64,000 nt of DNA from an uncultured archaeon (GTDB lineage: Archaea; Asgardarchaeota; Thorarchaeia; Thorarchaeales; Thorarchaeaceae): positions 1,561 to 65,560 of the forward strand of contig CAYYQL010000012.1 in the NCBI GenBank assembly GCA_964473825.1, given 5' to 3'. Shown here piece by piece: positions 56,413 through 60,658 of this stretch. Both the position numbers and the translations under genes were made by a program. Every line of letters starts with the position of its first letter. The stretch's first letter is position 1. The notes under the pieces were generated by a model. The model worked only from the letters and a program-made list of their open reading frames with translations, was not told the origin of the DNA and did not search any database.

Positions 56413-58587
56413 CTAGCGAAATCCTCCGCTTACACACGCAGAGTGACACGCAGAATGGCATGCGCTATGGCACACGCAAGCACTATGACATGCCGAGTGA
56501 CATGCCGAGTGGCACGCATCATGAGTGACACACGCTGAATGGCAAGCGTCATGTGATACGCAGCGACTTGTACCCTCAACGATTGGCTTCAGTGGCTCGC
56601 TGATAATGTTAGCTACGCCATTCATGACCTCACCGATAGTGCTAGTGACATTGGACATAATCTGGCCGGTTGTGGCAGCTATATCACCTACCACTCGACC
56701 CGCGCCGCTGATTGCATGACCTGTAGCATCAGCAACACCTCGGAACCACTCTGGAATATCTGGGGGAGAAATTGCACCGCCCGTATCCTTGAAGATGCCA
56801 CCGATTCGTGTGTCATGTCGTGGATGCATATACAACCAATACCAAGCCCAAGAATCATGATACCTTCTGTCGAAGTAATAGTCAGTCCGGCCATGGATCG
56901 TGGGGTTGGTCTCAAGCTCGTTCCAGGCCCCTTCAATCATCTCGTCATGATGCTCCTTGGTCGCCTCGAAGTCTGCATCCCATGATTTCTTCTGCACGTG
57001 TTCTCCAAGTTCGTCAATCATCTCATCGACCAGCTCTGGGTCCAACTCATTGTCCTTGATGGCCTCGAGGAACAGCTCCTCGTAGTAGGTCAGTTCCTCG
57101 AACTTGACGCCGGTCACCGAGAGCTTCAGTGGCTCAGAGGAAATTACTCGGACTGCTCCCTTCTTGACGCAGGACATGAGTATCATCGTGATAAGTTTCT
57201 GTCGGCTCGTGTTGAAGAAGAAAGCGGACTCGACAGGGTCTAGCTCTGCAACCGTCCCAGGGGTTCCATAGGTCTCAACTGCAATCTCTGGGCTCTCGTA
57301 GTCATAAGTGGTTTCATCCGCAGTCCACTTGGCCCCGTACGAGTATGTGACTTTCTTGTAGACGTAGTAGAGTATACCGAGCGCCATGATTCCTGATATA
57401 CCGATGATGAGGAGGTCAGGCGGTATCAGGGGTGGGATATACTCCCTTACGTAGACGTCGACTGTAAAGGTCCCGCCGACCGAACCCTCAGAGTTTTCTC
57501 CTGTAATAAGAAAGATGACTGTTAGAACCTCAGGAATGTTATCAGCCCTGAAAGTATAGGTTAGGTATTCGCTCTGACCACCCGCAAGATTCCCAATGTA
57601 TGTTTCGAGCGCTCCATAAATCAGAGTCATATTGTCAGGTAGTCCTAGAGTGACTTCAACATTGGACACTGCGCTATCACCGTAATTGAAGATAACTAGC
57701 TCGTATTCGAAATTGGTATCAGCATCCACATCTACATAGGTATCACCTACAACCCCAAGATCTCCCGGTTCTACATGGTCGGCATAGAACGACCAATTCG
57801 TGTACTGAAATACCTGCAACTTGTCATATGCATATGCGGGGTCAGCTGCTAGACTAACACTGAAGTTGCGGGGAGTTGTATCCTCGGCCGAAGGATATGC
57901 GAGAAGGTTGTTCTCATCGTATTCCCGAAGGGTTTCACCCGAGGAGAGGATGCCCTGTCGGTAGTCCTCCACGTACCCTGCATGAAGTGCACCTTCGGAA
58001 GTGATTCCACCTCCAGGTACTATCCACGCCTCATCCATCTCAATCGGATAGACTACCCGTACATTCTCATACAGCACATCGATACTCCATTGGACGGGCG
58101 CCCAGTTGAGAACACCGAAGTCGCCCGTGACAGGTTCTGAAGATCCCTCAAGAGTGTACTCTCCTGTAGTCTGTTCGATTATCCTATTCGTGCTGAAGTA
58201 TCCAAAGACTACTAGGACCTGTTCACCCTCAGGAGTACGGGGCACCCAATCCAGTTTGTAGCCTTGAGAGACCTTATCCACGATAAGGGAGTATCTTGAG
58301 CCACCCCATTCTACATAGGCACGGTTTGAGTCATATACACTGCTCTCTTGGATCCCGAATAGGTCGAATCCACCAAGCCCGCCACTCGCTGCCGTAAAAG
58401 TGATGAAATAAGTCACATTGATTCTGCCGTTCTGTAGGACGACAACATCAACATAGACGCTGTTGAGTGTCGGATCTGCTGCAAGATCTGCTGAACCACT
58501 GGCCGTATTGCAGGATGCAATCATCCCCACTATGAACAGACTGAGCAGACCTGCGACGTATCTTCTCTTCATTCGTTTCTCTCCCAT
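56413..58587 (-). CDS. single-pass membrane protein (DUF2207-like topology) with C-terminal (Cys-His-Ser-Ala)n repeat tail
   Basis: Signal peptide or lipobox-like N-terminus ([10 protein letters not shown]). About 390-aa ectodomain. Central TM helix [19 protein letters not shown]. About 300-aa cytoplasmic part ending [47 protein letters not shown]. Confidence 0.7.
   Translation of the reverse strand: [724 protein letters not shown]
56416..56571 (-). repeat. tandem 12-nt repeat (gtgacatgccga-type) encoding (CHSA)n at the C-terminus
   Basis: Directly visible periodicity in the nucleotide sequence (...acatgccgagtgacatgccgagtggcacgc...). Encodes about ten C-H-S-A tetrapeptide units, some with V or D substitutions. 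Confidence 0.8.
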
Positions 58588-58718
58588 GTACTCTCTGCTC
58601 TAATTGACCTCTTGTGCTGTCTTCCGAAGAATTCCTTCATCCTGTGATGAATGATACGGAAGCAGTCCGAGTAGAACACCGGACTCCTCTATCTCAGGCA
58701 TCAGAAGTCTCGGCCCCA

Positions 58719-59114
58719 CTATTCGCTCCTTCTTGCCCTCATGATCTCTGCCTGAGCGTAGGTCAGATTCGACAGATCTGCCTTGGCCTGAGCCCAATCA
58801 ATCAAATCTGGGAACTCCTGTATCATGCCACACCAGATAATGTGGTAGACTCGCTTCATCATAACTTGCGCATCACCCGTGGTGCCTGTGAATTCAAAGA
58901 AAGCCTTGATGATTGCAGGATTCTGCTGAGTTACATTCTGAGGAACCTCAGTTCCAAATCCTGCAAATGCCACACCGAGTTCTCGGAGAACATCCATCCT
59001 CTCACGAATTCCGGAGGCTATCACGGGCAAATCGATATCATATGCATTGAAGTGCATCTCGAGTTTCTTATCAGTTATCTTACCATATGGCAGTGTAATT
59101 TCACCGGTGGTCAT
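58719..59114 (-). CDS. hypothetical protein (131 aa), divergent from the radical SAM gene
   Basis: Compact ORF, no motif. May be a roadblock-like small alpha/beta protein; speculative. Confidence 0.4.
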   Translation of the reverse strand: MTTGEITLPYGKITDKKLEMHFNAYDIDLPVIASGIRERMDVLRELGVAFAGFGTEVPQNVTQQNPAIIKAFFEFTGTTGDAQVMMKRVYHIIWCGMIQEFPDLIDWAQAKADLSNLTYAQAEIMRARRSE

Positions 59115-59236
59115 TGTTAACTCTCTCCTAAGCGTTGCCTTCTAACTGACGTAAGCAAAGATAAGCGTTTCAGGTCATTGCCATCGAGAGTCAAGATACC
59201 AAGCCTTAAGTCGTCATAGTCATTCACTGGCTCATT

Positions 59237-60658
59237 ATGCCTGTTTCAGAGTACCAGTACACCCTTGAGGACCTGAAATGGATACCCAGATTCATGGAAG
59301 AGGTAAGGGACTACTTCTTCTCTCGCCCGGAAGACAACCTTCTGATTCTGAGGCCCAACAAGGTGATGCATCTGAACAGGACAGGGATGCTCATGCTGAA
59401 GATGCTTCTTGAAGGCGAGAGTCCAGAGAGCGTTGTGGACTATTTTACGGAGAATCATGGCGCTGACAAGCAGCAGGTTCTCAATGACCTGGCTGCATTT
59501 GTGGACGATCTACAGAATATGGTGAGCGGAAACCAGAATGTCTACACTTATCGCACAGCAAAGATTGTTCCCTTCGGTACAGGCGAAATCAAGTATCCGG
59601 TACTCAGCGAGATAGCAGTGACTTACCGCTGCAATAACAAGTGCAGGTTCTGCTATGCATATTCCCCCTTTCGAGAATCAGACGAGATGACTACCGAAGA
59701 AGTCAAACGTGTCATAGACATCATAGCCGATGATGCTCATGTCCCATCTCTCTCTTTCACAGGCGGAGAGCCCACACTCAGAAACGACCTATTTGAGCTG
59801 ATTAAGCACGGTAGAGAGAAGGGGCTCCGTGTCAATCTGATAACAAATGGACGGCGCTGTGCAGACAAAGCGTTCGTTGCAAGACTCGTCGAGGCAGGTC
59901 TGAACAGCTCACAAGTGTCCATAGAAGGTGCTGACGCTGAAACTCACGACTTCATCGTTGGCGTCCCAGGCGCCTTTGAACAGACGGTAGAGGGTATCAA
60001 GAACCTTCGCAAGACCGACATCTACACTCACTGCAACACAACAATCTGCAGACCTAATGTAGAGAATCTTGAGGAGCTAGTAGACTTCCACGCTGATGAG
60101 CTGGGACTGACCTATTTCAGCATGAATATGGTGATCTATACCGGGACAGCGGCGAAGCTGAGAGATGAGCTTCAAATCAAGTACACCGAGATTGGAGACA
60201 TTGTCCGAAGAGTGAAGAAGAGAGCCAGCAAGAAAGGAGTTCAGTTCGTCTGGTATGCTCCTACACCTGTGTGTATCTTCAATCCCATTGCTCATGGACT
60301 GGGAGCAAAGAGCTGCGCCTGTTGTGATGGTCTTCTCTCAGTCGATGCAGAGGGGAAACTCCTGCCATGCTCCAGCTTCAGCGAGCCGGTCGGAGACCTT
60401 CTTCACGACGGGTTTGAGAAGGTCTGGTACAATCGAGCTTCCAGGTTCTGGAGAGCAAAGGACTATGCGCCTGAGGGCTGTAAGGCTTGTGAATACTTCA
60501 ACTATTGCTTCGGAGGATGTCCACTCTACTGGGATGTGCACGGGTTCGAGGAGATAGAAGACTTCTGGCCGGAGAAGAGCAGGGTGGCATCCAAGATGGA
60601 CGAGATCAGACTCAATCTGAGAAGACGAATAAGAGGCGATCAGCATGGAATCACCTAG
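59237..60658 (+). CDS. radical SAM/SPASM-domain enzyme with N-terminal PqqD-like RiPP-recognition domain
   Basis: N-terminal 100 aa (LILRPNKVMHLNRTGMLMLKMLLEGESPESVVDYF...VLNDLAAFVDDLQNM) reads as PqqD/RRE. CNNKCRFC is the CxxxCxxC AdoMet cluster. The C-terminus carries 8 Cys in SPASM spacing (CIFNP...CACCDG...LPCSS...GCKACEYFNYCFGGC). Confidence 0.85.
   Translation: MPVSEYQYTLEDLKWIPRFMEEVRDYFFSRPEDNLLILRPNKVMHLNRTGMLMLKMLLEGESPESVVDYFTENHGADKQQVLNDLAAFVDDLQNMVSGNQNVYTYRTAKIVPFGTGEIKYPVLSEIAVTYRCNNKCRFCYAYSPFRESDEMTTEEVKRVIDIIADDAHVPSLSFTGGEPTLRNDLFELIKHGREKGLRVNLITNGRRCADKAFVARLVEAGLNSSQVSIEGADAETHDFIVGVPGAFEQTVEGIKNLRKTDIYTHCNTTICRPNVENLEELVDFHADELGLTYFSMNMVIYTGTAAKLRDELQIKYTEIGDIVRRVKKRASKKGVQFVWYAPTPVCIFNPIAHGLGAKSCACCDGLLSVDAEGKLLPCSSFSEPVGDLLHDGFEKVWYNRASRFWRAKDYAPEGCKACEYFNYCFGGCPLYWDVHGFEEIEDFWPEKSRVASKMDEIRLNLRRRIRGDQHGIT

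What the first reader, a model, noticed from the sequence alone, without database searches (positions are those of the whole stretch)
56413..60658. Candidate Cys/His-repeat modification system: (CHSA)n-tailed membrane protein next to an RRE-radical SAM-SPASM maturase
The 724-aa membrane protein at 56413-58587 ends in about ten tandem C-H-S-A tetrapeptides. The ORF at 59237-60658 has the three-part architecture of RiPP maturases: a PqqD-like RRE, a CxxxCxxC radical SAM core and a full SPASM domain. Sactisynthases and ranthipeptide maturases with this architecture install Cys-derived thioether crosslinks. No short precursor-peptide ORF is visible within 1 kb either side. The nearby Cys-repeat tail is therefore the only obvious Cys-rich substrate candidate. 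TIGRFAM describes a His-Xaa-Ser repeat system with its own radical SAM maturases, but this repeat register and the single-maturase gene content do not match it. A post-translationally crosslinked, membrane-tethered Cys/His-repeat domain has not, to my knowledge, been described.
Basis: partly seen in the sequence, partly recalled or inferred. Interest (0 to 1): 0.8.

Follow-up and report, generated by a model that had tools for sequence, protein, structure and literature searches.

The report
Radical-SAM enzyme paired with Cys/His-tailed membrane protein
A membrane protein ending in a highly conserved cysteine/histidine repeat tail sits next to a peptide-modifying radical-SAM enzyme in Asgard archaea, Chloroflexi and other microbes, which points to an uncharacterised modification made on a large protein rather than on a small peptide.

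Summary
The 724-aa membrane protein (56413-58587, minus strand) ends in a 49-aa tail with 11 Cys and 9 His. It has 7 exact CHSA units, not about ten. The ORF at 59237-60658 is a PqqD(RRE)-radical SAM-SPASM enzyme that reaches no curated family cut-off.

Seeding on the enzyme, 35 of 36 assessable Asgard loci and 29 of 32 Chloroflexi loci carry the tail gene alongside. Seeding on the tail alone, 71 of 73 assessable metagenome loci carry the enzyme, usually 0-200 bp downstream. Gene order differs between lineages, so inherited synteny does not explain the link.

The tail is the best-conserved part of the protein: 96-100% identical within Thorarchaeota where the body is 46-60%, and pN/pS is 0.07 against 0.29 upstream. 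No short precursor gene is conserved. A sister class with (CA)n tails is also rSAM-linked.

The most likely reading is that the enzyme modifies the cytoplasmic tail, probably by Cys-derived thioether crosslinks. That chemistry is untested. The closest known concept is the in-silico "CXXX-repeat radical SAM target" family (TIGR04117/PF27846). This is a new variant of it: a protein-embedded substrate on a DUF2207-like membrane protein.

The parts
56413..58587 (-). Gene for the 724-aa bitopic membrane protein. Layout: signal peptide, beta-rich ectodomain, one TM helix, cytoplasmic domain, Cys/His tail. It is a distant DUF2207-like protein.
   Evidence: ORF. Orthologues with the same layout occur in 35 Asgard, 29 Chloroflexi and about 70 other loci. 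Relatives score 19.7-23.9 bits on DUF2207_N against a cut-off of 24.4, and 23.6 bits on TIGR04222 against 43. The window protein itself has no significant Pfam or NCBIfam hit.
56416..56562 (-). Cys/His tail module of 49 aa ([49 protein letters not shown]). Proposed substrate (core) of the rSAM enzyme.
   Evidence: Unit counts. The tail is 96-100% identical across Thorarchaeota whose protein bodies are 46-60% identical. It is about 83% identical in Chloroflexi. Thirty-five distinct DNA sequences encode 8 peptides, and pN/pS is 0.067. Census of 58 distinct tails: position +1 is His in 460 of 465 four-residue units, +2 is Ser in 420, and +3 is Ala in 463.
56563..57372 (-). Cytoplasmic domain between the TM helix and the tail. 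It may include the segment the RRE recognises.
   Evidence: Hydropathy analysis, plus basic residues right after the TM helix, place it in the cytoplasm by the positive-inside rule. This is inference. Exhaustive phmmer finds only 179 representative homologues in 1.84 billion proteins. By the sorting, 18 of the 148 newly retrieved ones carry CHSA tails and 48 have another Cys-rich end, nearly all (CA)n tails.
57373..57429 (-). Single transmembrane helix (residues 387-405).
   Evidence: Kyte-Doolittle scan. AF2 models a helix at 390-415.
58719..59114 (-). 131-aa accessory protein (called p131 here), upstream of the tail-protein gene on the same strand. Function unknown.
   Evidence: Present at 59-73% identity between the two genes in all assessable Asgard loci. 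Homologues at 34-44% identity lie just upstream of the tail-protein gene in 20 other-lineage metagenome loci. No Pfam or NCBIfam hit. The single-sequence AF2 model is uninformative (pLDDT 45).
59115..59236 (.). 122-bp divergent intergenic region between p131 and the rSAM gene. Presumed shared promoter region.
   Evidence: Coordinates. Its small ORFs are not conserved. The promoter role is inferred only.
59237..60658 (+). 473-aa PqqD(RRE)-radical SAM-SPASM enzyme. Proposed maturase of the tail.
   Evidence: Pfam domains. No NCBIfam cut-off is reached. The closest solved structure by sequence is PqqE 6c8v at 72 bits, then BlsE, SkfB, GDGT-MAS and SuiB. It is 70-100% identical in Asgard, about 50% in Chloroflexi and 40-47% in other tail-bearing lineages.
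59345..59515 (+). PqqD-like RiPP recognition element (residues 37-93).
   Evidence: PF05402, E 1.1e-8.
59630..59653 (+). CX3CX2C radical SAM cluster motif (C132, C136, C139).
   Evidence: Invariant in alignment A1.
60272..60520 (+). SPASM region with seven invariant Cys (C346 to C428), including CX12GX4C and CX2CX5CX3C.
   Evidence: Alignment A1. PF13186 scores 22.1 bits in the window enzyme and 35.4 bits in a relative.
61854..62564 (-). 236-aa protein with two TM segments, winged-helix domains and a C-terminal zinc ribbon. Probable lineage-variable third component.
   Evidence: It is the only ORF in the 64-kb window with this architecture. An ORF with the same architecture lies near the gene pair in 28 of 36 Asgard, 27 of 29 Chloroflexi and most (CA)n loci, but in 0 of 37 other CHSA lineages. 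Direct sequence similarity is weak and confined to the zinc ribbon.

Best explanation
This is a two-gene core module with lineage-specific accessory genes. A DUF2207-like membrane protein exposes a C-terminal (ACHS)n Cys/His tail in the cytoplasm, and a dedicated RRE-radical SAM-SPASM enzyme modifies that tail after translation.

Proposed steps:
1. The PqqD-like RRE docks on the tail or on the segment just before it.
2. The CX3CX2C [4Fe-4S] cluster cleaves SAM to give a 5'-deoxyadenosyl radical.
3. The radical abstracts a hydrogen atom from a residue in each repeat.
4. A tail Cys, probably held on a SPASM auxiliary cluster, captures the carbon radical and forms a thioether.
5. This repeats along the 11 Cys-initiated units and yields a crosslinked, membrane-tethered Cys/His ladder that stays attached to the protein.

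What is shown: the domain make-up, the extreme conservation of the tail, and two-way genomic linkage across phyla.
What is inferred: that the tail is the substrate (my estimate about 0.7) and that it faces the cytoplasm.
What is speculative: that the product is a thioether (about 0.4) and what the modified tail does.
For: - Enzyme-seeded scan of GTDB genomes: the tail gene is adjacent in 35 of 36 assessable Asgard loci and 29 of 32 Chloroflexi loci.
- Tail-seeded scan of metagenomes, independent of the enzyme: an rSAM homologue is present in 71 of 73 assessable loci, typically 0-200 bp after the tail gene.
- Gene order and orientation differ between lineages. The pair is divergent with p131 between in Asgard and co-directional elsewhere. 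Linkage is therefore not inherited synteny.
- Enzyme divergence tracks tail type: 70-100% identity in Asgard, about 50% in Chloroflexi, 40-47% in other CHSA lineages, and 34% for the one full-length (CA)n-linked enzyme compared (L164).
- The tail is the most constrained part of the protein (pN/pS 0.067 against 0.29 upstream).
- The enzyme carries an RRE, which is the hallmark of peptide-directed rSAM enzymes.
- No alternative short precursor is conserved.
- Sister proteins with (CA)n tails are also rSAM-linked in 5 of 6 sampled loci, which leaves Cys (and the Ala-Cys dipeptide) as the shared feature.
- Precedents in the literature: QhpD crosslinks Cys in a protein subunit, and PapB installs six thioethers in repeated CX3D motifs (PMC8326336, PMC9413430).
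Against: - There is no biochemical evidence. The chemistry cannot be read from the sequence.
- The best family and PDB matches (AhbD, NirJ2, PqqE) are generic SPASM similarity, not sacti- or ranthipeptide maturases.
- Three Chloroflexi loci (L066, L069, L082) have the enzyme with its coiled-coil and zinc-ribbon partners but no adjacent tail gene.
- L095 and L096 have the tail gene but no enzyme within 4-9 kb.
- A Cys/His repeat is also a plausible metal ligand without any modification.
- AF2 gave no usable model of the tail (pLDDT about 30).
Confidence: 0.6

Rival explanations
1. The tail is the substrate, but the chemistry is not a Cys thioether. Options include a three-residue His-Ser-Ala cyclophane (triceptide-like C-C crosslink), Calpha epimerisation, or oxidation of Cys or Ser to formylglycine.
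For: His at +1 and Ala at +3 are as invariant as Cys in the CHSA class. An H-S-A triplet fits the aromatic-X-X register of cyclophane-forming rSAM/SPASM enzymes; that register is from my own knowledge and was not tested here. The enzyme's nearest families are not sacti- or ranthipeptide maturases.
Against: The (CA)n sister tails contain no His or Ser yet keep the rSAM linkage. That points to Cys and Ala as the common reactive elements. Most characterised RRE-SPASM enzymes with Cys-rich substrates make thioethers (PMC8326336).
Confidence: 0.2
2. The tail is an unmodified metal- or Fe-S-binding (or redox) module. The rSAM enzyme works in the same pathway but acts on something else, such as p131, the zinc-ribbon protein, a lipid or a small molecule.
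For: Cys at i and i+4 with an adjacent His is a classic soft-metal ligand set. Some enzyme loci lack an adjacent tail gene yet keep the coiled-coil and zinc-ribbon partners (L066, L069, L082). Accessory genes vary by lineage.
Against: The enzyme carries a peptide-recognition RRE. The only partner shared by all lineages is the tail protein. p131 has no conserved Cys and is absent from Chloroflexi. Enzyme divergence tracks tail type.
Confidence: 0.13
3. The tail is a RiPP core. After modification it is cut from the membrane protein, which acts as a giant leader, and is released or exported as a free peptide.
For: A site-2-protease-like Peptidase_M50B gene directly precedes the tail gene in Ca. 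Ozemobacteraceae. A TldD/PmbA pair lies upstream in one (CA)n locus.
Against: No protease or transporter is conserved across lineages. The tail is predicted to be cytoplasmic. The ecto-, TM and cytoplasmic domains are all conserved with the tail, which suggests that the whole protein is the functional unit.
Confidence: 0.05
4. The adjacency has no functional meaning. On this reading the rSAM is a housekeeping enzyme (AhbD, NirJ, PqqE or MoaA-like) and the tail is low-complexity sequence.
For: The top NCBIfam hit is heme b synthase AhbD. The enzyme is 70-80% conserved across Asgard.
Against: AhbD scores 155 bits against a cut-off of 500, and all other equivalogs also fail. Linkage runs both ways across phyla with rearranged gene order. 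The tail is under strong purifying selection.
Confidence: 0.02

Closest known systems
CXXX-repeat radical SAM target system (TIGR04117 'Cys-Xaa-Xaa-Xaa repeat radical SAM target protein'; Pfam PF27846; from memory, its partner is the 'CXXX repeat peptide maturase')
   Same: Tandem Cys-X-X-X repeats at a C-terminus encoded next to a radical SAM/SPASM enzyme. PF27846 is on record for the Ozemobacteraceae homologue of this protein. TIGR04117 gives weak hits to relatives' tails (13-19 bits).
   Different: The model describes small proteins (its profile is 98 positions). Here the repeat ends a 500-770-aa DUF2207-like membrane protein. The window tail gives no TIGR04117 hit at E<=1, and relatives score far below the cut-off of 50. 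The enzyme reaches no curated maturase model. The unit is fixed as C-H-S-A. As far as I know that family is also only an in-silico prediction.
Ranthipeptide and sactipeptide maturases (PapB/freyrasin, CteB/SCIFF, AlbA, SkfB)
   Same: RRE + radical SAM + SPASM architecture and a Cys-rich substrate. PapB processes six repeated Cys-X3-Asp motifs one after another (PMC8326336, PMC9413430). The Thor tail also contains two C-X3-D motifs (CVSHD and CVTHD).
   Different: Those substrates are short leader-core peptides that are cleaved and released. NCBIfam scores are far below cut-off: PapB 90 against 340, StsB 107 against 625. SkfB matches at only 61 bits in the PDB. No leader peptidase or exporter is conserved here.
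QhpD/QhpC of quinohemoprotein amine dehydrogenase
   Same: A radical SAM/SPASM enzyme installs Cys thioethers in a polypeptide that remains part of a functional protein rather than a secreted peptide (PMC8326336).
   Different: QhpC is a small soluble periplasmic subunit with Cys-Asp/Glu links and a CTQ cofactor. It has no repeat and no membrane anchor. No QhpD model appears among the 25 best NCBIfam hits.
His-Xaa-Ser repeat system (HxsA with HxsB/HxsC/HxsD)
   Same: A His/Ser-containing repeat protein next to SPASM-type rSAM enzymes.
   Different: The register is C-H-S-A, not H-x-S. There is one rSAM enzyme, not a pair. HxsC scores 109.5 bits against a cut-off of 267.9.
ACGX-repeat peptide system (TIGR04340 maturase)
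   Same: A four-residue repeat containing Ala-Cys, paired with a rSAM/SPASM enzyme. The Ala-Cys dipeptide is also what the CHSA and (CA)n tails share.
   Different: TIGR04340 scores 102 bits against a cut-off of 400. Those targets are short peptides (from memory).
DUF2207 (PF09972) and TIGR04222 membrane proteins
   Same: Same overall layout: signal peptide, ectodomain, TM helix, cytoplasmic domain and a low-complexity C-terminus. Sub-threshold hits to both models.
   Different: All scores are below the curated cut-offs. DUF2207 function is unknown; one S. mutans stress phenotype has been reported (PMC10457818). No paper in the searchable library mentions both DUF2207 and radical SAM.

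Membership tests
CXXX-repeat radical SAM target (TIGR04117 / PF27846) | Target protein matches the family HMM at or above its cut-off (50 bits for TIGR04117) | tested here: not met
   The window tail gives no NCBIfam hit at E<=1. 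Relatives score 13.3 and 18.7 bits. PF27846 is not in the local Pfam copy. It is on record for the Ozemobacteraceae homologue but not for the Thor orthologues in L001 and L002.
CXXX-repeat radical SAM target (TIGR04117 / PF27846) | Tandem Cys-X-X-X repeats at the C-terminus | tested here: met
   Seven CHSA units in the window. Across 58 distinct tails, 465 of 565 Cys-to-Cys intervals are 4 residues.
CXXX-repeat radical SAM target (TIGR04117 / PF27846) | Adjacent radical SAM maturase | tested here: met
CXXX-repeat radical SAM target (TIGR04117 / PF27846) | Small stand-alone target protein (the model is 98 positions long) | tested here: not met
   The protein is 724 aa here and 500-770 aa in all full-length homologues.
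His-Xaa-Ser system (HxsABCD) | HxsC/HxsB-type maturases at cut-off and an H-x-S repeat register | tested here: not met
   HxsC scores 109.5 bits against 267.9, and HxsC4 scores 104.7 against 500. The repeat is C-H-S-A. Only one rSAM gene is adjacent.
Sactipeptide/ranthipeptide RiPP systems | RRE + radical SAM + SPASM maturase | tested here: met
   Pfam PqqD, Radical_SAM and SPASM. Invariant Cys motifs.
Sactipeptide/ranthipeptide RiPP systems | Short leader-core precursor peptide gene | tested here: not met
   No conserved small ORF. The Cys-rich sequence is always fused to the large membrane protein.
Sactipeptide/ranthipeptide RiPP systems | Cys-S to carbon thioether in the product | not testable with these tools
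   Needs mass spectrometry or NMR of the modified tail.
Sactipeptide/ranthipeptide RiPP systems | Membership of a named maturase family (PapB, StsB, SkfB, AlbA, SCIFF) | tested here: not met
   PapB scores 90.2 bits against 340 and StsB scores 106.9 against 625. The SCIFF maturase is not among the 25 best families listed.
Heme b synthase AhbD / NirJ family | Equivalog score at or above 500 bits | tested here: not met
   AhbD scores 155.1 bits and NirJ2 scores 147.7 bits, both against 500. The match covers only the core and SPASM region, residues 127-428, not the N-terminal PqqD domain.
PqqE (PQQ biosynthesis) | Equivalog score at or above 381 bits, and pqqABCD genes nearby | tested here: not met
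   134 bits. The neighbours are p131, a D-Ser-dehydratase-like gene and a metallophosphoesterase.
   Not among the 25 best NCBIfam families, all of which score at least 82 bits.
DUF2207 (PF09972) | N-terminal domain at or above the gathering score of 24.4 bits | tested here: not met
   The window protein has no hit at E<=1. Relatives score 19.0-23.9 bits. This suggests distant kinship but does not establish membership.

The most novel reading that the evidence does not exclude
The module makes a previously unknown kind of protein-embedded post-translational structure. A radical-SAM-built, crosslinked Cys/His (or Cys/Ala) ladder stays tethered to the cytoplasmic face of the membrane on a DUF2207-like receptor-shaped protein. 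It would serve as a metal-binding, redox or signalling element rather than as a secreted natural product. This would give a first biochemical handle on the DUF2207-like superfamily. It would also define a modification shared by Asgard archaea, other archaea and several bacterial phyla.
Probability: 0.3. Interest if true: 0.85.

Novelty: new variant of a known kind. Interest (0 to 1): 0.72.

Why it matters
Radical SAM/SPASM maturases are known almost entirely from small secreted peptides. In this case the conserved partner is the tail of a large membrane protein. The pairing spans Asgard archaea, Thermoprotei, a cultured methanogen (in the (CA)n sister class), Chloroflexi and Ca. Ozemobacteraceae.

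If the tail is modified, RiPP-type chemistry extends to a structural or signalling membrane protein. That would give DUF2207-like proteins their first mechanistic clue. It would also add an enzyme-substrate pair with up to 14 repeated reaction sites, which could be useful for peptide crosslinking work. The pair is small and directly testable by co-expression and mass spectrometry.

Tried and rejected
- **Word-indexed protein searches** with the whole protein and with a tail profile. They returned only tail-less fragments or almost nothing. Full-length tailed proteins that are called on contigs (for example the 719-aa gene in L002) were not retrieved, so these searches say nothing about distribution. 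Several homologues end at contig breaks just before the tail. I read P0002's 'LSLIHI' ending as adapter-derived.
- **AF2 of the 724-aa protein** with an 8-sequence alignment. It gave pLDDT 57 overall and about 30 in the tail, so no inference about tail structure is possible.
- **Foldseek against the PDB.** It gave OST1/ribophorin-I, TRAP-beta, CARDB and complement beta-sandwiches at TM-scores of 0.1-0.3. I treat this as a weak lead only. The afdb50 library was unavailable.
- **AF2 of p131 as a single sequence.** pLDDT was 45, which is unusable.
- **Literature searches** for the motif strings, for DUF2207 with radical SAM, for CXXX repeat, and for Asgard/Chloroflexi SPASM. Nothing on this system was found. 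The Haft and Basu 2011 paper is not held.
- **Recent DNA slippage** as the origin of the repeat. Rejected on codon diversity.
- **The second Cys-rich stretch at 21201.** Rejected as an antisense frame.
- **A systematic recoding signal behind the in-frame stops before the tail** (L001/L016 TAG, L090 TAA). They are sporadic and sit at different positions, and L144 is a frameshift. I did not pursue this as recoding.
- **Homology between the Chloroflexi coiled-coil protein and anything in the window.** None was found.

Full report
**Observation**

The window is Thorarchaeota-like: near-identical orthologues of its genes lie in Thorarchaeota MAGs. The ORF at 56413-58587 is on the minus strand and encodes 724 aa. 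It ends in [49 protein letters not shown]. That is 49 aa with 11 Cys, 9 His and 7 exact CHSA units.

The remaining 672 residues hold only 2 Cys. With the body's composition a CHSA is expected about 2e-7 per site, so the tail is far beyond chance. It is also not recent DNA slippage: TRF finds only 2.2 copies of a 12-nt unit and the codons vary.

The ORF at 59237-60658 (plus strand, 473 aa) has PqqD, Radical_SAM and SPASM domains. Its CX3CX2C motif and seven SPASM-region Cys are invariant in orthologues from two domains of life. The two genes are divergent.

**What the enzyme is not**

No NCBIfam equivalog is reached:

| Family | Score (bits) | Cut-off (bits) |
|---|---|---|
| AhbD | 155 | 500 |
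| NirJ2 | 148 | 500 |
| PqqE | 134 | 381 |
| HxsC | 110 | 268 |
| ACGX maturase | 102 | 400 |
| PapB | 90 | 340 |

anSME and the SCIFF maturase are not among the 25 best families. The closest solved structure by sequence is PqqE at 72 bits. The enzyme is therefore an uncurated RRE-SPASM family.

**Co-occurrence, seeded on the enzyme**

A scan of one genome per GTDB species with an alignment of the enzyme returned 80 loci. I ran tblastn of the window's proteins against them.
- **Asgard:** 35 loci have the membrane protein, p131 and the tail divergently upstream. Nine more are cut by a contig end. In the last one (L014) the gene is interrupted after about 86 codons by foreign ORFs on a 0.47x-coverage contig.
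- **Chloroflexi:** 29 of 32 assessable loci have a 570-630-aa protein ending in [57 protein letters not shown]. It lies directly upstream on the same strand, with a gap of 7-306 bp.
- **Architecture:** the Chloroflexi proteins share the window protein's layout. They have a signal peptide, an ectodomain of about 250 aa, one TM helix followed by basic residues, a cytoplasmic domain and then the tail.
- **Exceptions:** three Chloroflexi loci (L066, L069, L082) have the enzyme without an adjacent tail gene.

**Co-occurrence, seeded on the tail**

A metagenome scan used only the peptide patterns H[SD]ACHSAC and ACHSACVS and returned 80 loci. Of these, 71 contain an rSAM homologue that is 40-50% identical to the window enzyme. 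It usually starts 0-200 bp after the tail gene. Seven of the nine misses are contig edges. Only L095 and L096, which encode the same 535-aa protein, truly lack it.

These loci range from 36% to 59% GC. Their tails are more regular, for example [48 protein letters not shown]. One such protein is named as coming from Ca. Ozemobacteraceae. Linkage survives changes in gene order and orientation across phyla, so it is functional and not inherited synteny.

**Selection on the tail**

In Thorarchaeota the protein body is 46-60% identical to the window protein, yet the tail is 96-100% identical.
- Thirty-five distinct DNA sequences encode only 8 distinct tail peptides.
- pN/pS is 0.067 in the tail against 0.29 in the 63 codons upstream, with pS at 0.93.
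- Across 58 distinct tails from 146 loci there are 7-14 Cys per tail.
- In the four-residue units, position +1 is His in 460 of 465, +2 is Ser in 420 (Asp in 33), and +3 is Ala in 463.
- Endings are CVSGG[A/F/S][H/R] or CVS[R/N]F.

**Other components**

No small intergenic ORF is conserved. Four accessory genes recur, each in only some lineages.
- **p131** is present in all assessable Asgard loci. Homologues at 34-44% identity lie upstream of the tail gene in 20 other-lineage loci. It has no conserved Cys and no family hit.
- **The Chloroflexi cluster** is a same-strand four-gene set: the tail protein, the rSAM, a coiled-coil protein of about 392 aa and a 2TM-wHTH-zinc-ribbon protein of about 163 aa.
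- **The zinc-ribbon architecture** recurs in 28 of 36 Asgard, 27 of 29 Chloroflexi and most (CA)n loci, but in 0 of 37 other CHSA lineages. In the window it is the single ORF at 61854-62564.
- **The other lineages** carry a membrane protein of about 323 aa instead.

The invariant core is therefore the tail protein plus the rSAM.

**Wider family**

Exhaustive phmmer with the cytoplasmic domain minus the tail found only 179 representatives in 1.84 billion proteins. I sorted the C-termini of the 148 newly retrieved ones:
- 18 end in CHSA tails;
- 48 have another Cys-rich end, nearly all of them (CA)n tails such as [20 protein letters not shown] or [27 protein letters not shown];
- the remaining 82, many of them fragments, show no Cys-rich end;
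- one Promethearchaeota protein (P0210, counted among the 18) is a hybrid (...[23 protein letters not shown]).

(CA)n tails occur in Anaerolineaceae, Thermoprotei and a cultured Methanocella/Methanooceanicella. Five of six sampled (CA)n or hybrid loci have a rSAM-SPASM enzyme nearby, with a recorded or apparent PqqD-like N-terminal domain in three of them (L163, L164, L165). The sixth contig is too short to judge. The enzyme in L164 is 34% identical to the window's (E 1e-79). What the two tail classes share is Cys, and specifically the Ala-Cys dipeptide.

**Relation to known families**

Relatives score just below the DUF2207_N cut-off (19-23.9 bits against 24.4) and below TIGR04222 (23.6 against 43). 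The only tail-level signal in the curated libraries is TIGR04117, 'Cys-Xaa-Xaa-Xaa repeat radical SAM target protein', at 13-19 bits against 50. The precomputed Pfam annotation of the Ozemobacteraceae homologue lists PF27846, 'tSAM_targ_Cxxx_rpt'. That family is absent from the local Pfam copy.

So the idea that CXXX repeats are rSAM targets is already in databases. The window protein fails the TIGR04117 test, and it is a large membrane protein, not a peptide of about 100 aa. I found no paper on this system in the searchable library.

**Mechanism**

By the positive-inside rule the tail is cytoplasmic and so within reach of a cytoplasmic Fe-S enzyme. This is inference. The RRE implies recognition of a peptide segment. 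Characterised RRE-SPASM enzymes with Cys-rich substrates form thioethers. Examples are the sacti- and ranthipeptide maturases, QhpD acting on a protein subunit, and PapB acting on six repeated CX3D motifs (PMC8326336, PMC9413430).

I therefore favour iterative Cys-derived thioether formation along the tail, giving a crosslinked ladder that stays on the protein. My confidence is about 0.7 that the tail is the substrate and about 0.4 that the product is a thioether.

Alternatives are His-Ser-Ala cyclophanes or other chemistry, an unmodified metal-binding tail, or a cleaved RiPP. A coincidental adjacency is effectively excluded.

**Verdict**

In novelty it is a new variant of a known kind: an rSAM maturase with a CXXX-repeat target, here embedded in a DUF2207-like membrane protein and conserved across domains, with a (CA)n sister class. 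It is readily testable by co-expression and mass spectrometry.

Noticed in passing
L163-L166, L169, L171; proteins P0160-P0274: There is a sister class of the same membrane-protein family with (CA)n tails, such as [20 protein letters not shown] or [27 protein letters not shown], in place of (ACHS)n. It is also linked to rSAM-SPASM enzymes that have a recorded or apparent PqqD-like N-terminus in three of the five linked loci. It occurs in Anaerolineaceae, Thermoprotei and a cultured Methanocella/Methanooceanicella. One Promethearchaeota protein (P0210) has a hybrid tail.
   Followed up: partly
L001 4371-4373 (same contig as L016); L090: An in-frame TAG separates the 636-aa body from the perfectly conserved tail in one Thorarchaeota contig. 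It aligns with Asn, Glu or Gln in the orthologues. An in-frame TAA sits at a different conserved position in L090. These look sporadic (sequencing error or pseudogene), but read-through was not excluded.
   Followed up: partly
window 56413-58587 model; P0298 (WP_230741659.1): RefSeq names the Methanocella family member 'dolichyl-diphosphooligosaccharide-protein glycosyltransferase subunit 1' (OST1/ribophorin I). The top Foldseek hits of the low-confidence AF2 model are also OST1/ribophorin I and TRAP-beta. Pfam Ribophorin_I scores only 12 bits. A possible distant fold relationship between DUF2207-like ectodomains and ribophorin I was not established.
   Followed up: partly
window 55657-56412 (-) and 54654-55586 (-): The metallophosphoesterase gene's ATG directly abuts the TAG stop of the tail-protein gene (TAGATG). 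A Roc/Arf-like small GTPase follows it. The phosphoesterase keeps this position in about 20 Thorarchaeota loci but not outside Asgard.
   Followed up: partly
L066, L069, L082: These Chloroflexi loci have the rSAM orthologue with its coiled-coil and zinc-ribbon partners but no adjacent tail gene. In L066, where the ORFs were read, large secreted repeat proteins lie upstream instead. Whether these genomes encode the tail protein elsewhere is unknown.
   Followed up: partly
L167 7253-7996; L168 446-1171: In Ca. Ozemobacteraceae a Peptidase_M50B (site-2-protease-like) gene immediately precedes the tail-protein gene. That could mean intramembrane cleavage of the protein in that lineage. It is not conserved elsewhere.
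   Followed up: no
L165 9353-10060; L169 4411-6320: Some (CA)n loci insert extra tailoring genes next to the rSAM. L165 has a TylF-like methyltransferase. L169 has a second radical SAM enzyme plus a methyltransferase.
   Followed up: no
L014 1-3300: The membrane-protein gene is cut off after about 86 codons by a 418-aa ORF and a Mor-like ORF on a 0.47x-coverage contig. This is either a mobile-element insertion or a chimeric assembly.
   Followed up: partly
window 18567-23357 (-): A 1596-aa secreted protein with subtilisin-like motifs read by eye (HGT...SHVAG and GTSQAAP), a long poly-Thr linker and a C-terminal TM anchor. The antisense frame at 21180-21467 gives a spurious Cys-rich 95-aa ORF.
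   Followed up: no
The word-indexed protein search did not return any full-length tailed protein, not even the window's own product, and only 417 candidates for the tail profile. Several homologues end at contig breaks right before the tail. One (P0002) ends in what looks like adapter-derived 'LSLIHI'. The repeat may break assemblies and be under-represented in protein databases.
   Followed up: no
window 62767-63183 (+): A 138-aa ORF with no family hit is 78-99% identical across Asgard loci, more conserved than its neighbours. It always lies just beyond the 236-aa zinc-ribbon gene. Its function and its relation to the module are unknown.
   Followed up: no
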